This document shows positions 3,001 to 50,400 of a DNA stretch of 64,000 nt, one piece after another. Every line of letters starts with the position of its first letter. Positions within the stretch are counted from its first letter, which is position 1. The position numbers were made by a program. This DNA comes from Ylistrum balloti (Eukaryota), in NCBI RefSeq assembly GCF_031769215.1, contig NW_026782091.1, positions 992,001-1,056,000 on the forward strand. The letters run 5' to 3'.

Positions 3001-5424
3001 AACAGTTTAGAGAAAATAATAATTTATCCCAGCTTAGTTTCCTGTCTACGACCATGATTTTCTATTTAAATGTAAATCCCTTTCCTATTGCCTATACCGG
3101 ATGCATGTACAAACAATATCGTATCGTGAGGTGGAAGTTCGGATACAAGATTGCATGTGTATTCCCTATCTCATGGAAATAATGCTACATTGAAACAATT
3201 TCGTCAATAGGCAGATATGTCAGTCAAATTAGACTAATCTTTAAAGCGTTCAGGTTCTTCAGTTACTCGGAAGAATAATTGAAAGCGAGTAGGTGTATGT
3301 TCATTTGCAGTGCAAGTAAGTTTTTTTAACTTACATTGTCAACTATATGGACAAACGGGCTGAAGTTAGCGAGGAATTATTCTGCTTTATCCTTTAAGTG
3401 TTATATTTGGGACATATTTAAAGAACTGGAGCGCTTGAATATCTTTAAACAAATGACTAGATGTTTGTAGAGAACACAGCAGCATATACCTATTAAACAA
3501 ACTTGTGAATCGAAAAATTGGCAACGAAATCGTAACAAACTATTCACCAAACGATTGACACAAAAATGCTGAAGAAAAATTAGCCTGGAGTTCCTGAATA
3601 GAAAGCGGGCTCTGCTTCTTCGCAGATAAATGCGTTAGATCACCGTGAAATTAAGTCGAAAATGACACGTTCTGAAAATGCATATTGAGACATCAGTTCA
3701 ATGGGTGAATGAGTGCAAAGCAAAGTACGATGCAATAGGTATGGGCAAGGTTTAAAATAAATATAGAAAATACCAACATGTCAACATAATCATAATCCAA
3801 ACTCAAATTCCAGAAAACTACGACAAAATGTGAACAAAAGAGAAAATTACATGACGACTCCGATAATAAAACCAGGTATTCTGGAAGAGTAATCGTGTTC
3901 TGCTTCACCGACGACACCCGCGTCTGCATCTTTTGAAATCCTATGCTACAAGTTTGTCCGTCTGTTTACGACCACGTGATTCATTTATATTTTTGAGAAA
4001 TAAATTCGTGATGTAATTTAGCGTCTCATTTATAAGTACCGTAAATAAAACTCGCGGAAACAAGGAAAACACAACGATGTTAATTTGTCGTTATATAGAA
4101 CATTACATCTTATCATTAATAAAAAAAAAAAGCAGACACCGATGTTGAAGTTATTTTGAAAATACTGAACATTTCAGCATTTTTGGACCGAAGTGGTACT
4201 ACGATACAGAGCAAATTTCTCATCAGTCTCTCATTACTTTTTTATAATCATCTAATACCAAGGAATGTTTCGATCTAAACTTTCACTACTTTAAATGTTG
4301 CGTCCAGATTGGATACAATTTTGTTCGGAAATCCTCATCTTAATGTAGACCTAGTCTAGTTACATATTTTATTTCAATAGTAATAATCATTGCAGATATA
4401 CAATATATGAACATTTAAACAACATTAATTGTTTCCATATATAAATGTATATAACTTGTCTCTTGTTCTGATAATGACAATAAATATGTTTTAAACGCTA
4501 ACTTCTGGAACATTTCATGTGTTTGTAATTGTCCTTATAAAGTTACCGTCCGAATTATCAAATTCCTCAAAACTACAAATATTCACTTGAAATCTGATAT
4601 TGCATAACGTAGCTATACTCGATCTCGACTATTCTCTCCATGGCAGCTGTTACCAGTCGTTAAACTTGTGACGTCATAGCCCTATAGCGTCCAATTTAGC
4701 GCAATTCACCCTTTTGATGATTAGTAGTAGGACAGGTGAAAATCGTACACTTTACACGTCAGTATCTCAATCATTCTCAAGTATTCTCAATCAGTATCTG
4801 AATCATAAAGAATGAGACTATGTTAATTTCTATTTTCACTCAACGTACAATTCAATGTAGAGGTACATGCAATTGGAACGGTTTGCTAAATACTATATAT
4901 CAAATATGCTGTTCCGAAGATCAATGTATCATATACAGTTACTATCTCTAGTATGTTTGTTGTTGTTAATCCGGTTTTCGTTTGAGGACAAAATCAATTA
5001 AAACTGCTCGAAATGATATTAGTAAATCGTTGGCAAATTTCTGCTGAGCCATTTCGAGAATGGCAGTCACTATTTCCCCAAAATATTAAGTTTCATTTGT
5101 TCCAAGAGTCCGAGTGACGCCGTGCTGTTGTCACTGTGATAGTCCATTGCATGCTTTTTAGATATAGGTTTCCAGTATGGTGAGGGTTTGAAAGACGCTT
5201 TAAATTTCTGAAATGAAGAACAGATTTGTACATTAATTACGAGAATAATTGTATACATTCAACAAAGGAACACGTATTTTTATGATACTTTTACGTCTCT
5301 GGTCTCTTCGTTAAAGTAGAATATTTACGGCAATACGATACAAAGGTATCTATGCATGTTAACAACACAGATTCAATACATCTCGAAAATAGGACTGTAC
5401 CAAATGGATGATGATGATGATGAT

Positions 5425-5476
<52 letters not shown>

Positions 5477-47400: not shown

Positions 47401-50400
47401 TCTATGAATATTTATAGGGGAAAAATTCCATACATTTCACAGTCACATACTTTTAATTTATACTACAGGCTGGGATATACGTCTACCAAATATTAGACTG
47501 GTATGTTGCGGTGACCTTACCCATCCTTGGTTTTATCGAGTGTATCATATTTGGATGGATATACGGTAAATACACTTTCTTTATTTTATGTATTTTCTTG
47601 TTATGCTTTTGTTTGTTTATTTGTTTGTTTTTTTTCTCGTTTCTTCTTCGTTTACTGGTAATCACATATCACATGCATAGACTTCCAAACTAAATCTAAA
47701 GTGAGTTTATCTTTTCAGGGGCCGAACGGTTTTCAAAAGATGTGAACATGATGCTTGGTCGTCAAATTCCTGTGTTTGTTCGGATATGCTGGTGTTTTAT
47801 AAACCCTATCGTACTTTTGGTATGCGTAAATTTTATATGACATTTAAAAACATTCCAACCAGGTTTTTTTAATCACGGAAAAGAAGTGAGAATCATACCA
47901 AATATGGTTACCCAGCCGTAAACATCTCTTCTCGTTAGAATTGTACATAATATTTTCAGAGCTTCAATGACTACTTCAAGTAACAACGTATTAACTATGT
48001 TTACAGAATTTTGTGATGTATCAATTAGTCAGTGATAAAGATAACATATACAAGAATACATTTCAGTATTTAGTAAATCACGAATCAATATTGTATTCAG
48101 GTCCTACATTTAAAGATGAACTGACAACAGGATAGGAATGGATGATCATAAGTATCCATTAATCATCATTATGGACTCTCGGGATTTTCACAATAACGGC
48201 ATGATTTCTCGCAACTTTTACATAAGGATCAAATAGTAATGTGGGCATTAGGCCATAGAAATAAAGCATGAATTGGATGACAGGTTGTCCTTTTTGTTCA
48301 GTTTATTATTTTTTCATTTTTTTTTGTTTTGTTTTTTGCTATTTTGTTTTTAAATCTACAACAATAATGTTAGAAATTTAAAAAAAAAATAAGAATTTAA
48401 AGTGCAATCAAACCGAAAAGATATTCCGTTATTAAGAAAAATAAAGAAGTAAGAGTACAAACGGACGAAATGACAGACAGAGGCAGATTTTTATAAATTA
48501 CTCCCAACTTTTGGCAACGGTGAACTTTAGAAAAAAATGTTTAGGTAAATATAAGTTAAGGTATTGACCCGGCCTGAACCGGAACGAAGGGATCTAACTC
48601 CAACAAACCCGACTTCTAATTTTTCAACGAAATTACGTTGATAATTTTATAGTATTAAGCTATTTCACGTGAAAACATTGAATGTTACATAATTTCAATT
48701 TATATAATTTACTCTCCAACATTTATGGAAACAACACTGACGTCATATGAAGCTACGATAGTAAGGTAACACATCTGCGCCAGAAGACTGCAAGGAACCA
48801 TTCCGTACCGATGAATCCGGGTTTTTTATTTACTTTTTCCGCATAGGGACGTAATTACTGGACTAAGCTGTAGAAAGAAATGTTAAGACAATGTATAGAA
48901 ATAATAGCACTTAACTGATATTACCTAATTTGAAAAAAAAATGTTAATGACTATCAATCAATTTTCATCAATTCTCACTCATTTAGACTGAAAGAATGAT
49001 TGCATTTTGTGTTCTTACATATATTTTCAGGTACTATTTGTGTTCACATTTGTATCATATGAGCCCCCAACATACGGAGACTATGTGTACCCATCTTACG
49101 CTAATATCATTGGATGGTTGATAGGAATGCTTCCCATAGTACCCGTGGTTTTGGTTGGAATCATGACCGTCTTGAAAACCCCTGGACAGTCAGTGTTCGA
49201 GGTACGGTTTCTATGTATACTGTCAACAGGCAAAAAAAAGTCTTTATCGACATACCTACTTTAATAGAATCTTCCTGGTCAGACGTGTGTTTTGAAAGTT
49301 TCACTTGGCTCTAACACAAGATGTCTGAAATTTGGATCCACATGTGTCTATTGTGGGGCAAGAGCAAGTTCTTGCGTGTTTGTTTTGTTTTGTTTATGTT
49401 TTTGTTTTTGTTTTTTTTTTGACAAACCCACAAAGGCCTACATGTGACACAGCTTTTCATTTCATCTCGGCCTTGGCGTTCACATATCAATTTCCTCCTG
49501 AGATTTTCTTTTAAAATCTTCGAATAAAATAAAAACAAATATCGAATCGTTATTTAAGTAGGAAGGTCAGCTCTGTTTCCTCTCAGAAATGAATTTCCAT
49601 ATCTTAAAGATTACAAATGGGAGCCTGAAGTTGGTTCCCAGCTTTTTATTTGTTGAATATATACAATTATTCTCGTGCAAAATGTAACACAATCTGTTCT
49701 TCATTTCAGAAATTTAAAGCGTCTTTCAAACCCTCACCATACTGGAAACCGATATCTAAAAAGCATGCGATGGACTATCACATTGACAACAGCGCGGCGT
49801 CACTCGGACTCTTGGAACAGATGAAACTAAATATTTTGGGGAAATAGTGACTGCAGTTCTCGAAATGGCTCAACAGAAATTTGCCAACGGTTTACTAAAA
49901 TGATTTCGAGCAGTTTAAATTGATTTTGTCCTAAAACGGAAACCGGATTGACGACAACAAATATACTAGAGATAGTAACTGTATATGATACATTACTCCT
50001 CACGTTGCACTTCGGATCAGAATATTTGATATATAGTATTTATCAAACCATTCCATTTGCATGTACCTCTACGTTAAAGTGTACCTTGAGTGAATATAGA
50101 AACGAACACAGACTTATTCCTTATGATCCATAATTTTAATATGGAGATGTTGGCGTGTAAAGTGTACGATTTTCACCTGTCCTACTCCTAATTAGCCAAA
50201 AGGTGTCTCGCGCTGAATGGGACGCTATCGGCTATGACGTCACAAGTACAACGACTGGTAGCAGATGCCTTGGTCAGAATAGTCGAGATCGAAAATAGCT
50301 ACGTTATGCAACATCAGATTTCAAATGAATGTTTTATAGTTTGTTATAATATGTTTAATCTGTCTCTGTCGACACTTCCAGACAAACAACAACATAATAT

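What the first reader, a model, noticed from the sequence alone, without database searches (positions are those of the whole stretch)
4570..50345. About 46-kb inverted duplication of an SLC6 + SLC16 transporter cassette with asymmetric fate
Seen: two long arms in opposite orientation around a 7.8-kb spacer. Both SLC6 genes keep all 13 exons and open frames, and exon 2 differs only by synonymous changes. The MCT survives only in the right arm because the inner breakpoint lies inside its exon 3. Inference: a fold-back-type duplication that doubled SLC6 dosage while the MCT copy was dead on arrival, with both SLC6 paralogs under purifying selection. Intron divergence of up to about 20% and several independent pseudogene lesions argue against a haplotig artefact.
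[Added by the scan's program, not by the reader: the finding's places include an assembly gap (unread letters, written N; its length is only estimated) at 5806 to 5997, 29307 to 29438. Whether the letters on both sides are continuous or in frame is not known: test that first.]
Basis: partly seen in the sequence, partly recalled or inferred. Interest (0 to 1): 0.68.

Follow-up and report, generated by a model that had tools for sequence, protein, structure and literature searches.

The report
Inverted duplication of a transporter locus
A stretch of an invertebrate-like genome carrying an SLC6 transporter gene and part of a neighbouring monocarboxylate-transporter gene was copied in reverse orientation next to itself; both SLC6 copies stayed intact while the cut-off transporter fragment decayed, which is an ordinary kind of gene duplication.

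Summary
Observation confirmed. The window holds an inverted repeat: left arm 4570-19540, right arm 27311-50342, single-copy spacer of 7,770 bp.

**SLC6 genes.** Each arm carries a complete 13-coding-exon SLC6 gene (Pfam SNF). The copies differ by about 65 substitutions and one 3-nt indel in 1,890 nt. dN/dS is 0.27. There is no frameshift, although the introns carry 9.7 indels per kb.

**MCT gene.** An SLC16/MCT-like gene runs from the spacer into the right arm. The left arm starts 312 nt into its large exon. That remnant has a 43-bp frameshifting deletion, a ~123-bp deletion that removes the splice donor, and a premature stop.

**Gaps.** Both N gaps lie in non-coding sequence, and their flanks are colinear with the other arm.

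**Real or artefact.** All four homology ends lie in gap-free sequence. One contig holds both inner copies. Divergence is equal on both sides of the right gap. A real, old inverted segmental duplication is most likely (0.75). A haplotig mis-join is not excluded without reads (0.15).

Mechanism, dosage effect and taxon are untested. The finding is ordinary in kind, so interest is low.

The parts
4570..19540 (.). Left arm of the inverted repeat (derived copy), 14,971 bp
   Evidence: Colinear inverted blocks to 27311-50342. About 77% of it aligns.
19541..27310 (.). Single-copy spacer, 7,770 bp. It holds the 5' part of the intact MCT-like gene.
   Evidence: No match to either arm. It contains no N. 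Internal repeats: a ~530-bp tandem pair at 19792-20835 and an 86-bp x2 repeat at 22746-22918.
27311..50342 (.). Right arm (parental context at its inner edge), 23,032 bp
   Evidence: The MCT reading frame runs without a break from the spacer across 27310/27311.
5070..13664 (-). SLC6 copy L, 13 coding exons: A 13664-13481, B 12845-12714, C 12366-12042, D 11307-11175, E 10418-10284, F 9748-9645, G 9466-9342, H 8713-8601, I 8272-8144, J 7915-7819, K 7667-7567, L 6339-6169, M 5207-5070 (with stop)
   Evidence: Mapped from copy R. All AG/GT sites kept, no stops, one in-frame 3-nt deletion in exon A. 11 of 13 exons match Pfam SNF, tiling profile positions 1-523. Exon M lies on the far side of gap 5806-5997.
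41502..49847 (+). SLC6 copy R, 13 coding exons: A 41502-41688, B 42325-42456, C 42807-43131, D 43766-43898, E 44873-45007, F 45515-45618, G 45797-45921, H 46502-46614, I 47115-47243, J 47469-47565, K 47719-47819, L 49031-49201, M 49710-49847 (with stop)
   Evidence: Splice sites and phases were worked out by arithmetic. The exons total 1,890 nt and the final phase is 0. 11 of 13 exons match SNF. Five exons searched against PDB all hit eukaryotic SLC6 transporters.
24256..28163 (+). Intact SLC16/MCT-like gene, recognisable coding exons: a ~24256-24464 (acceptor uncertain), b 25371-25514, c 26999-27781, d 28018-28163 (with stop). The start-codon exon further upstream was not located.
   Evidence: The ORF around exon c matches MFS_1 at 3.1e-24. 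All 12 PDB hits at E<=0.001 are MCT2/1/8/10. Exons a and b align colinearly to MCT2 residues 19-76 and 65-122, weakly (E 0.026 and 0.0032). All introns are phase 1.
18894..19540 (-). MCT pseudogene fragment: the 3' 60% of exon c plus exon d
   Evidence: It starts at the homologue of 27311, which is 312 nt into exon c. It has a 43-bp deletion (frameshift), a ~123-bp deletion that removes the exon end and donor, and a stop in exon d. There are no homologues of exons a or b anywhere else in the window.
5806..5997 (.). Assembly gap (192 N) inside intron L-M of SLC6 copy L
   Evidence: Flank positions 5805 and 5999 align to right-arm positions 49442 and 49372. Not filled.
29307..29438 (.). Assembly gap (132 N) in the MCT-SLC6 intergenic region of the right arm
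   Evidence: Flank positions 29257 and 29441 align to left-arm positions 17532 and 17248. Not filled.
31304..39825 (.). Right-arm-only segment, 8,522 bp (the left arm has 59 bp here, 15601-15659)
   Evidence: No terminal repeats. 0 of 7 ORFs there matched Pfam. The Atlas search was inconclusive. It holds a 45-bp x7.2 tandem repeat at 39248-39572.
39826..41501 (+). Upstream region of SLC6 shared by both copies (left counterpart 13665-15600)
   Evidence: 1,386 nt align at 90.0% identity, so both copies kept the same ~1.6 kb of proximal upstream sequence.

Best explanation
This is a real, fairly old inverted segmental duplication.

Shown:
- A segment that began inside the large exon of an SLC16/MCT-like gene and ran through the intergenic region and a whole SLC6 gene now exists twice, in opposite orientation, around a 7.8-kb single-copy spacer.
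- The right copy sits in the original context, because the MCT gene reads straight from the spacer into it.
- The left copy begins mid-exon. Its MCT piece therefore lacked promoter, start codon and the first transmembrane helices from the outset, and it has since picked up two deletions and a stop.
- Both SLC6 copies keep 13 exons, all splice sites and open frames. Together they show dN/dS of 0.27. They fit the family profile equally well.

Inferred:
- Both SLC6 copies encode working Na+-coupled amino-acid-type transporters, transcribed divergently from the same duplicated ~1.6 kb of upstream sequence.
- The event dates to about 0.08-0.11 substitutions per neutral site ago.
- It arose without loss of material, by two template switches during replication: from the left end of the spacer onto the opposite strand at 27311, then back at 50342. 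I rate this route about 55% given a real duplication. Fold-back of a broken end followed by capture of the left flank is about 25%, and other routes make up the rest.
For: - Inverted colinear homology over 15-23 kb.
- All four homology ends (4570, 19540, 27311, 50342) lie in N-free sequence, at least 1.2 kb from a gap.
- The N-free stretch 5998-29306 contains both inner copies (17101-19540 and 27311-29306) together with the spacer.
- Non-coding identity is the same inside that stretch (88.9%, 728 nt) as across the gap (89.2%, 2,329 nt) and at the 3' end (88.2%, 482 nt).
- Each of the 13 SLC6 exon peptides has exactly two places in the window. MCT exons a and b have one place, exon c has one full and one partial (aa 105-199 of 260), and exon d has two.
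- SLC6 pair: Sd 32.5 and Nd 32.5 on 415 and 1,451 sites. dS is 0.083, dN 0.023, omega 0.27, P = 4.5e-7.
- Introns show 57 indel events in 5,896 aligned nt, 41 of them frameshifting. The 1,890-nt coding sequence has none, only one in-frame 3-nt indel.
- MCT remnant: omega 0.58 on 150 codons, not distinguishable from neutral (P = 0.17), plus three disabling lesions.
- Decay is confined to the gene that the breakpoint cut. This fits a paralogue and has no reason to occur in an allele.
- The spacer length lies within the 766-70,466 bp range of sequenced inverted duplications (passages of PMC3907307).
Against: - The scaffold is built from at least three contigs. Most of the right arm, including SLC6 copy R, is joined to the rest only across gap 29307-29438. 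Exon M of copy L and the outer left junction are joined only across gap 5806-5997.
- No reads, depth or second assembly could be consulted.
- Published bivalve assemblies do carry many haplotigs: about 100 Mb of 685 Mb was masked in one oyster assembly (passages).
- A gap between duplicated copies is a listed mark of false duplication (passages).
- Selection cannot be assigned to each copy without an outgroup.
- The 240 nt of intron around exon L differ at only 2 positions. Either gene conversion or allelic recombination could produce that.
- The mechanism is inference only. At the inner junction I could read one matching base followed by a mismatch.
Confidence: 0.75

Rival explanations
1. Assembly artefact. 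The two arms are divergent alleles (haplotigs) of one locus that scaffolding or gap closing placed side by side in opposite orientation. A mixed form is also possible: a real short inner inverted repeat, with the contig that holds SLC6 copy R (29439 onward) being the allele of the left arm.
For: - N gaps lie inside both arms. Copy R is linked to the rest only through gap 29307-29438.
- Haplotig retention is common in heterozygous bivalve assemblies (passages).
- Gaps between copies are a hallmark of false duplications (passages).
- dN/dS below 1 and intact frames are equally expected for alleles.
Against: - Homology does not run to contig ends. All four ends lie inside N-free sequence, and the outer flanks (1-4569 vs 50343-64000) share no inverted match.
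- One N-free stretch holds both inner copies in inverted orientation.
- Divergence does not change across the gap.
- Non-coding divergence of 9-11% with 9.7 indels per kb is far above the SNP-based diversity of 0.004-0.007 reported for an oyster. That measure does under-count divergent haplotypes.
- An allele would not be expected to lose the MCT 5' half exactly where homology ends, and then to carry three further lesions, while its SLC6 neighbour stays perfect.
Confidence: 0.15
2. The duplication is real, but only one SLC6 copy is in use. The other is silent or has begun to decay, for example through loss of distal regulatory sequence in the left arm, so there is no doubled dosage.
For: - The left arm lacks 8.5 kb of the upstream intergenic region present in the right arm.
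- Pairwise dN/dS cannot assign constraint to each branch.
- Replacement changes are concentrated in the N-terminal exon (Nd 10, Sd 1, plus one codon indel).
Against: - There are no frameshifts or stops in either copy, where 6.6 frameshifting indels would be expected for one free copy (P = 0.0014).
- All 24 internal splice-site pairs are kept in both copies.
- SNF profile scores are equal (421.8 vs 418.9 bits).
- The proximal 1.6 kb upstream is kept in both copies at 90% identity.
Confidence: 0.1

Closest known systems
Eukaryotic SLC6 / neurotransmitter:sodium symporters (Pfam SNF PF00209; solved relatives GlyT1/2, GAT1/3, SERT, dopamine, creatine and B0AT1 transporters)
   Same: In each copy, 11 of 13 exons match the SNF profile in colinear order over positions 1-523. 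The coding length of 629 codons is typical. All five exons searched against PDB returned only SLC6 transporters at the top.
   Different: No subfamily can be named. The best solved relative changes with the exon: C GAT1, A SERT/B0AT1, L the dopamine transporter entries 4xnu/4m48, F GlyT1/2, E the creatine transporter. The matches are at family level only (E 1e-10 to 1e-13). Substrate is unknown. From recall, the glycine in place of the monoamine-transporter aspartate in TM1 suggests an amino-acid type; this was not tested.
SLC16 monocarboxylate transporters (MCT2, PDB 7bp3/9l0b; MCT1, MCT8, MCT10)
   Same: The large exon aligns to MCT2 residues 122-395 (E 6e-11). All 12 hits at E<=0.001 are MCTs. 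The two upstream exons align colinearly to residues 19-76 and 65-122.
   Different: Similarity is low, and the upstream exons are only weakly significant. The start-codon exon was not found. Pfam only places the gene in the general MFS_1 family. Substrate is unknown.
Inverted duplications with a single-copy spacer formed by fold-back or template switching (Hermetz et al. 2014, PMC3907307, passages read; Martin et al. 2024, PMC10766183, abstract read)
   Same: Two inverted copies are separated by a unique spacer of a few kb. Here it is 7,770 bp; the reported range is 766-70,466 bp with a median of 3,428 bp.
   Different: The described human cases are megabase-sized, recent and lie next to terminal deletions. 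This one is 15-23 kb, old (~10% diverged) and interstitial, with unique sequence on both outer sides. The diagnostic inverted microhomology can no longer be read.
Local clusters of duplicated solute-carrier genes in bivalves (estuarine oyster: 10 copies of Slc23a2 and 4 of Mct12/Slc16a12; PMC8590024, passages read)
   Same: Lineage-specific local duplication of SLC genes, including an SLC16 member.
   Different: Those are tandem arrays reported as targets of selection. Here there is a single inverted pair, and the SLC16 member is the casualty rather than the beneficiary. The species of this window is unknown.
False heterotype duplications in assemblies (Ko et al. 2022, PMC9516828, passages read)
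   Same: Two diverged copies lie on one scaffold with N gaps nearby.
   Different: There is no gap in the spacer. Homology ends lie inside contigs. One contig carries both inner copies. Decay is gene-specific in one copy. Depth and k-mer criteria could not be tested.

Membership tests
SLC6 / SNF (PF00209) | Significant match to the family profile | tested here: met
   Searched exon by exon. In each copy, 11 of 13 exons match with E from 4e-13 to 1.3e-3. Nine exons in each copy are individually above the 27-bit cut-off.
SLC6 / SNF (PF00209) | Whole 12-helix core present, in order, in one open spliced frame | tested here: met
   Matches tile profile positions 1-36, 38-81, 83-148, 163-204, 205-249, 250-283, 285-324, 327-363, 364-407, 443-474 and 476-523. 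Exon J (32 codons, no hit) sits in the 408-442 slot. Phases close to 0 over 1,890 nt. The joined protein was not built or searched.
SLC6 / SNF (PF00209) | Assignment to a subfamily (GABA/taurine, glycine/proline, monoamine, B0AT-like) | tested here: inconclusive
   The best solved relative differs for each of the 5 exons searched.
SLC6 / SNF (PF00209) | Na+(/Cl-)-coupled substrate uptake | not testable with these tools
   Needs expression and uptake assays.
SLC16 / MCT | MFS fold, with MCTs as the nearest characterised relatives | tested here: met
   MFS_1 at 3.1e-24. 12 of 12 PDB hits at E<=0.001 are MCT2/1/8/10.
SLC16 / MCT | Complete gene from start codon to stop | tested here: inconclusive
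   Exons a-d cover MCT2 residues 19-395 plus a last exon, with consistent phase-1 introns. No ATG lies in frame in exon a, and the upstream exon was not located.
Fold-back / template-switch inverted duplication | Inverted copies separated by a single-copy spacer of about 1-70 kb | tested here: met
   7,770-bp spacer with no match to the arms. Range taken.
Fold-back / template-switch inverted duplication | [quoted passage not shown] | tested here: inconclusive
   At 19540-19542 / 27309-27311 there is one matching base followed by a mismatch. About 10% later divergence makes this unreadable.
Fold-back / template-switch inverted duplication | Nature of the outer junction (terminal deletion, captured sequence, or return to the original template) | not testable with these tools
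   Needs an outgroup genome or chromosome context.
False heterotype (haplotig) duplication | Assembly gap between the two copies | tested here: inconclusive
   There is no N in the spacer, and none between the inner 2-kb copies. Gap 29307-29438 does lie between most of the right arm and the left arm.
False heterotype (haplotig) duplication | Homology running to contig ends, with flanks allelic | tested here: not met
   All four homology ends are inside N-free sequence. The outer flanks share no inverted match.
False heterotype (haplotig) duplication | Half read depth, single-copy k-mers, discordant read pairs | not testable with these tools
   No reads available.

The most novel reading that the evidence does not exclude
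The decayed MCT fragment lies head-to-head with its parent gene, and 287 nt of the large exon are still 95.8% complementary (19254-19540 vs 27311-27597). If a transcript crosses both, it would fold into a long hairpin and give small RNAs that tune the intact MCT gene. Inverted pseudogene duplicates do this in mouse oocytes, and young plant microRNA genes do so too (both recalled, not checked here). A milder reading is that the two SLC6 copies have diverged in regulation through their N-terminal tails: 10 replacements, 1 silent change and a codon indel in exon A.
Probability: 0.03. Interest if true: 0.5.

Novelty: new member of a known kind. Interest (0 to 1): 0.2.

Why it matters
The importance is modest.

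- It is a clean worked example of how breakpoint position decides the fate of duplicated genes. The gene copied whole is kept under constraint, and the gene cut in an exon decays.
- It matters practically for counting SLC6 and SLC16 genes in a heterozygous invertebrate assembly. The pair should be counted as two SLC6 genes and one MCT gene plus a pseudogene, once read depth confirms it.
- The roughly 65 exonic differences give ready copy-specific markers for expression work.

Tried and rejected
- **Pfam on long ORFs outside the known genes.**
  - Spacer and MCT-downstream ORFs: 0 of 10 gave a credible family.
  - Left and right flank ORFs: 1 of 10 was a kinase, 1 was a repeat-derived ORF with weak hits, and 8 gave nothing.
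  - Right-only segment and SLC6-upstream ORFs: 0 of 10.
  - Further ORFs: 2 of 10 were kinase, 8 gave nothing.
- **A third gene upstream of SLC6.** ORFs at 14527-15311 and their right-arm counterparts are not conserved as coding; stops and frame changes differ between the arms. Rejected.
- **Transposon origin of the 8.5-kb right-only segment.** No terminal direct or inverted repeats were found. One ORF (32774-33088, minus strand) looked, from recall, like the tail of a non-LTR reverse transcriptase. Pfam found nothing. The Atlas search fell below its recognition threshold and gave no family. Left open whether this is an insertion in the right arm or a deletion in the left.
- **Structured RNAs.** Rfam gave 0 matches and the tRNA scan gave 0.
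- **SLC6 subfamily from solved structures.** No consistent best relative.
- **Junction microhomology.** Unreadable.
- **Positive selection on SLC6 exon A.** Omega is about 3 but not above neutrality (P = 0.25). It does differ from the other exons (Fisher P = 0.003-0.006).
- **Literature.** Three full-text searches (15, 12 and 10 rows listed of 236, 685 and 16 hits) showed no paper on an SLC6-SLC16 inverted duplication. I judged this from titles and abstract starts only.
- **Not used.** The genome-contig scan (bacteria and archaea only), structure prediction and complex prediction were not used, because none bears on the question.

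
Full report
**1. What is in the sequence**

The window has 33.6% G+C and two N runs, at 5806-5997 (192 N) and 29307-29438 (132 N). The repeat finder and a self-BLAST both show one long colinear series of inverted matches. 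After chaining there are 25 blocks, running from 4570/50342 at the outside to 19540/27311 at the inside. Block identities are 77-96%, apart from one identical 29-nt block. With the block 48273-49372 added, 11,593 nt align at 92.3%.

The spacer 19541-27310 is 7,770 bp. It has no counterpart in the arms and contains no N. The arms are unequal, at 14,971 and 23,032 bp. The main cause is an 8,522-bp segment, 31304-39825, that only the right arm has.

I do not take this contig for human. Its transporter exons match human proteins only at family level (E 1e-10 to 1e-13 over 34-107 residues).

**2. The gaps, tested first**

The left gap lies inside the last intron of the left SLC6 copy. It is 171 nt from exon L and 598 nt from exon M, and both exons are in phase 0. 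Its flanks (5805 and 5999) align to right-arm positions 49442 and 49372, so they are colinear.

The right gap is intergenic. It lies 1,143 nt past the MCT stop and 12,063 nt before the right SLC6 start. Its flanks (29257 and 29441) align to left-arm positions 17532 and 17248.

No reading frame crosses a gap.

The gaps do mean the scaffold has at least three pieces: 1-5805, 5998-29306 and 29439-64000.
- Exon M of the left copy and the outer left junction sit on the first piece.
- The left SLC6 exons A-L, the MCT fragment, the spacer and the whole intact MCT gene sit on the second.
- The right SLC6 copy sits on the third.

**3. The SLC6 pair**

Six of the first ten right-arm ORFs sent to Pfam matched the SNF family. 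From ORFs, AG/GT sites and phase arithmetic I derived 13 coding exons on the plus strand, 41502-49847. They total 1,890 nt and end in phase 0. Each exon maps to the left arm on the minus strand, 13664-5070. Length and splice dinucleotides are identical, except for one in-frame 3-nt deletion in exon A.

In each copy, 11 of 13 exons match SNF and tile profile positions 1-523. Exon J (32 codons) gives no hit but sits exactly in the empty 408-442 slot. Exon M is the C-terminal tail, which lies outside the profile. A tblastn of each exon peptice against the window finds exactly two places for all 13, so there is no third copy.

Five exons were searched against solved structures. All returned SLC6 transporters, but the best relative changed from exon to exon, so the subfamily stays open.

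**4. The MCT gene and its fragment**

The 305-codon ORF at 26890-27804 matches MFS_1 (3.1e-24). All 12 of its PDB hits at E<=0.001 are monocarboxylate transporters 2, 1, 8 and 10, aligned to MCT2 residues 122-395.

Two ORFs in the spacer align to MCT2 residues 19-76 and 65-122. These matches are weak (E 0.026 and 0.0032), but MCTs are the top hits and the order is colinear. With splice sites, the recognisable exons are:
- a, ~24256-24464
- b, 25371-25514
- c, 26999-27781
- d, 28018-28163

All introns are phase 1. Exon a has no in-frame ATG, so a start exon further upstream was not found.

Homology with the left arm starts at 27311, which is 312 nt into exon c. The left fragment (19540 down to about 18894) has no counterpart of exons a or b anywhere in the window. 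It also carries three lesions:
- a 43-bp deletion that shifts the frame;
- a deletion of about 123 bp that removes the end of exon c and its donor;
- a stop codon in exon d.

**5. Selection**

Counting whole codons exon by exon (622 codons), the SLC6 copies differ by 32.5 synonymous and 32.5 non-synonymous changes on 415 and 1,451 sites. This gives dS 0.083, dN 0.023 and omega 0.27. Silent changes are in excess at P = 4.5e-7. There are 32 amino-acid substitutions, or 94.9% identity.

The introns align at 90.6% over 5,896 nt and carry 57 indel events, 41 of which are not multiples of three. At that rate the coding sequence would have collected 13.1 frameshifting indels, or 6.6 if only one copy were unconstrained. 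It has none (P = 0.0014 for the one-copy case). This is the main argument that both copies were kept, not just one. A branch-by-branch test needs an outgroup. The two copies also fit the SNF profile equally well (421.8 vs 418.9 bits).

Inside the same arms, the MCT fragment serves as a control. On 150 alignable codons it gives Sd 10.5, Nd 19.5 and omega 0.58. This is not distinguishable from neutrality (P = 0.17), and it is close to what one constrained and one free lineage would give. The SLC6-versus-MCT contrast on its own is not significant (Fisher P = 0.13).

**6. Real duplication or assembly artefact**

Four points favour a real duplication.
- All four homology ends are inside N-free sequence, and the outer flanks share nothing. 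Haplotigs would be expected to stay homologous up to a contig end.
- The N-free piece 5998-29306 contains both inner copies in inverted orientation around the spacer.
- Non-coding identity is the same within that piece (88.9%) as between it and the third piece (89.2%) and at the far end (88.2%). This fits one event covering the whole arm.
- Decay is confined to the gene the breakpoint cut.

Non-coding divergence of 9-11% with nearly 10 indels per kb is also far above the SNP-based diversity of 0.004-0.007 reported for an oyster (passages). That measure does under-count very divergent haplotypes.

Four points count against.
- The link between the second and third pieces, and so the placement of the right SLC6 copy, rests on scaffolding.
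- A gap between copies is one of the listed marks of false duplication (Ko et al. 2022, passages).
- About 15% of one published oyster assembly turned out to be haplotigs.
- I had no reads.

I put the real duplication at 0.75 and an allelic mis-join, whole or partial, at 0.15.

**7. How it probably arose and works**

The right arm is in its original context, because the MCT frame is continuous across 27310/27311. The left arm is therefore the new copy. Its MCT piece lacked promoter, start and the first helices from the first day.

A spacer of a few kb between inverted copies is the signature of fold-back or template-switch events. Hermetz et al. report spacers of 766-70,466 bp, median 3,428 bp, with short inverted homology at the junction (passages; their supplements were not seen). 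Here the junction shows one matching base then a mismatch, which says nothing after this much divergence.

The duplication is interstitial, with unique sequence on both outer sides and no sign of lost material. I therefore favour two template switches at a replication fork over a broken-end fold-back with later capture. This is inference, and an outgroup genome would settle it.

Both SLC6 copies keep about 1.6 kb of common upstream sequence at 90% identity. Expression of both is plausible but untested, and 'doubled dosage' is not shown.

**8. Comparison with what is known, and verdict**

Local duplication of solute-carrier genes is already described in bivalves. One oyster has ten Slc23a2 copies and four Mct12/Slc16a12 copies in tandem (PMC8590024, passages). 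Three full-text searches listed nothing on an SLC6-SLC16 inverted pair, judged from titles and abstract starts only.

The finding is a new instance of a well-known kind of event. Interest is low (0.2).

**9. Unchecked**

- Orthologues, outgroups and taxon.
- Read depth.
- Expression.
- The joined protein models.

Noticed in passing
window 56941-60691, minus strand: A protein-kinase gene lies in the right flank. Three exons match Pfam Pkinase in colinear order: 60455-60691 (profile 9-67), 57558-57848 (101-162) and 56941-57165 (158-220). The kinase family was not determined.
   Followed up: partly
window 58695-59981: A 30-bp minisatellite with 42.7 copies at 85% match sits in an intron of the kinase gene. 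It creates long spurious ORFs on both strands (up to 228 aa) that draw weak low-complexity Pfam hits.
   Followed up: partly
window 41502-41688 and 13481-13664 (SLC6 exon A): The cytoplasmic N-terminal tail is the most diverged part of the protein pair. It has 10 replacements, 1 silent change and a one-codon indel in 61 codons, giving omega about 3. That is not above neutral (P = 0.25), but it differs from the other exons, whose omega is 0.19 (Fisher P = 0.003-0.006). A second cluster of replacements lies in extracellular loop 2, in exon C (8 of 107 codons).
   Followed up: partly
window 48828-49238 and 6132-6542: A 411-nt block around exon L is 99% identical. Its 240 intronic nt differ at only 2 positions, against a background of 7-9% (P <= 5e-6 for this one window). 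This could be a gene-conversion tract or a conserved intronic element.
   Followed up: partly
window 5267-5570: A ~300-bp left-arm-only insertion lies just upstream of the last SLC6 exon. It contains a (GAT)n microsatellite of 22.7 copies at 5407-5475.
   Followed up: no
window 39248-39572: A 45-bp tandem repeat with 7.2 copies lies at the edge of the right-arm-only segment. One inverted unit sits 4.5 kb away at 34736-34762.
   Followed up: no
window 19629-20835 and 25728-25872: Next to the inner junction the spacer holds a ~530-bp tandem pair (19792-20277 and 20326-20835, 80% identical). It also holds a ~150-bp element (19629-19782) with an inverted 77% copy at 25728-25872. Neither coincides with a breakpoint.
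   Followed up: no
window 18539-18781 (minus) and 28145-28447 (plus): ORF remnants just downstream of the MCT last exon are present in both arms, so they predate the duplication. From recall they resemble a repeated ORF common in marine invertebrate genomes. Pfam found nothing.
   Followed up: partly
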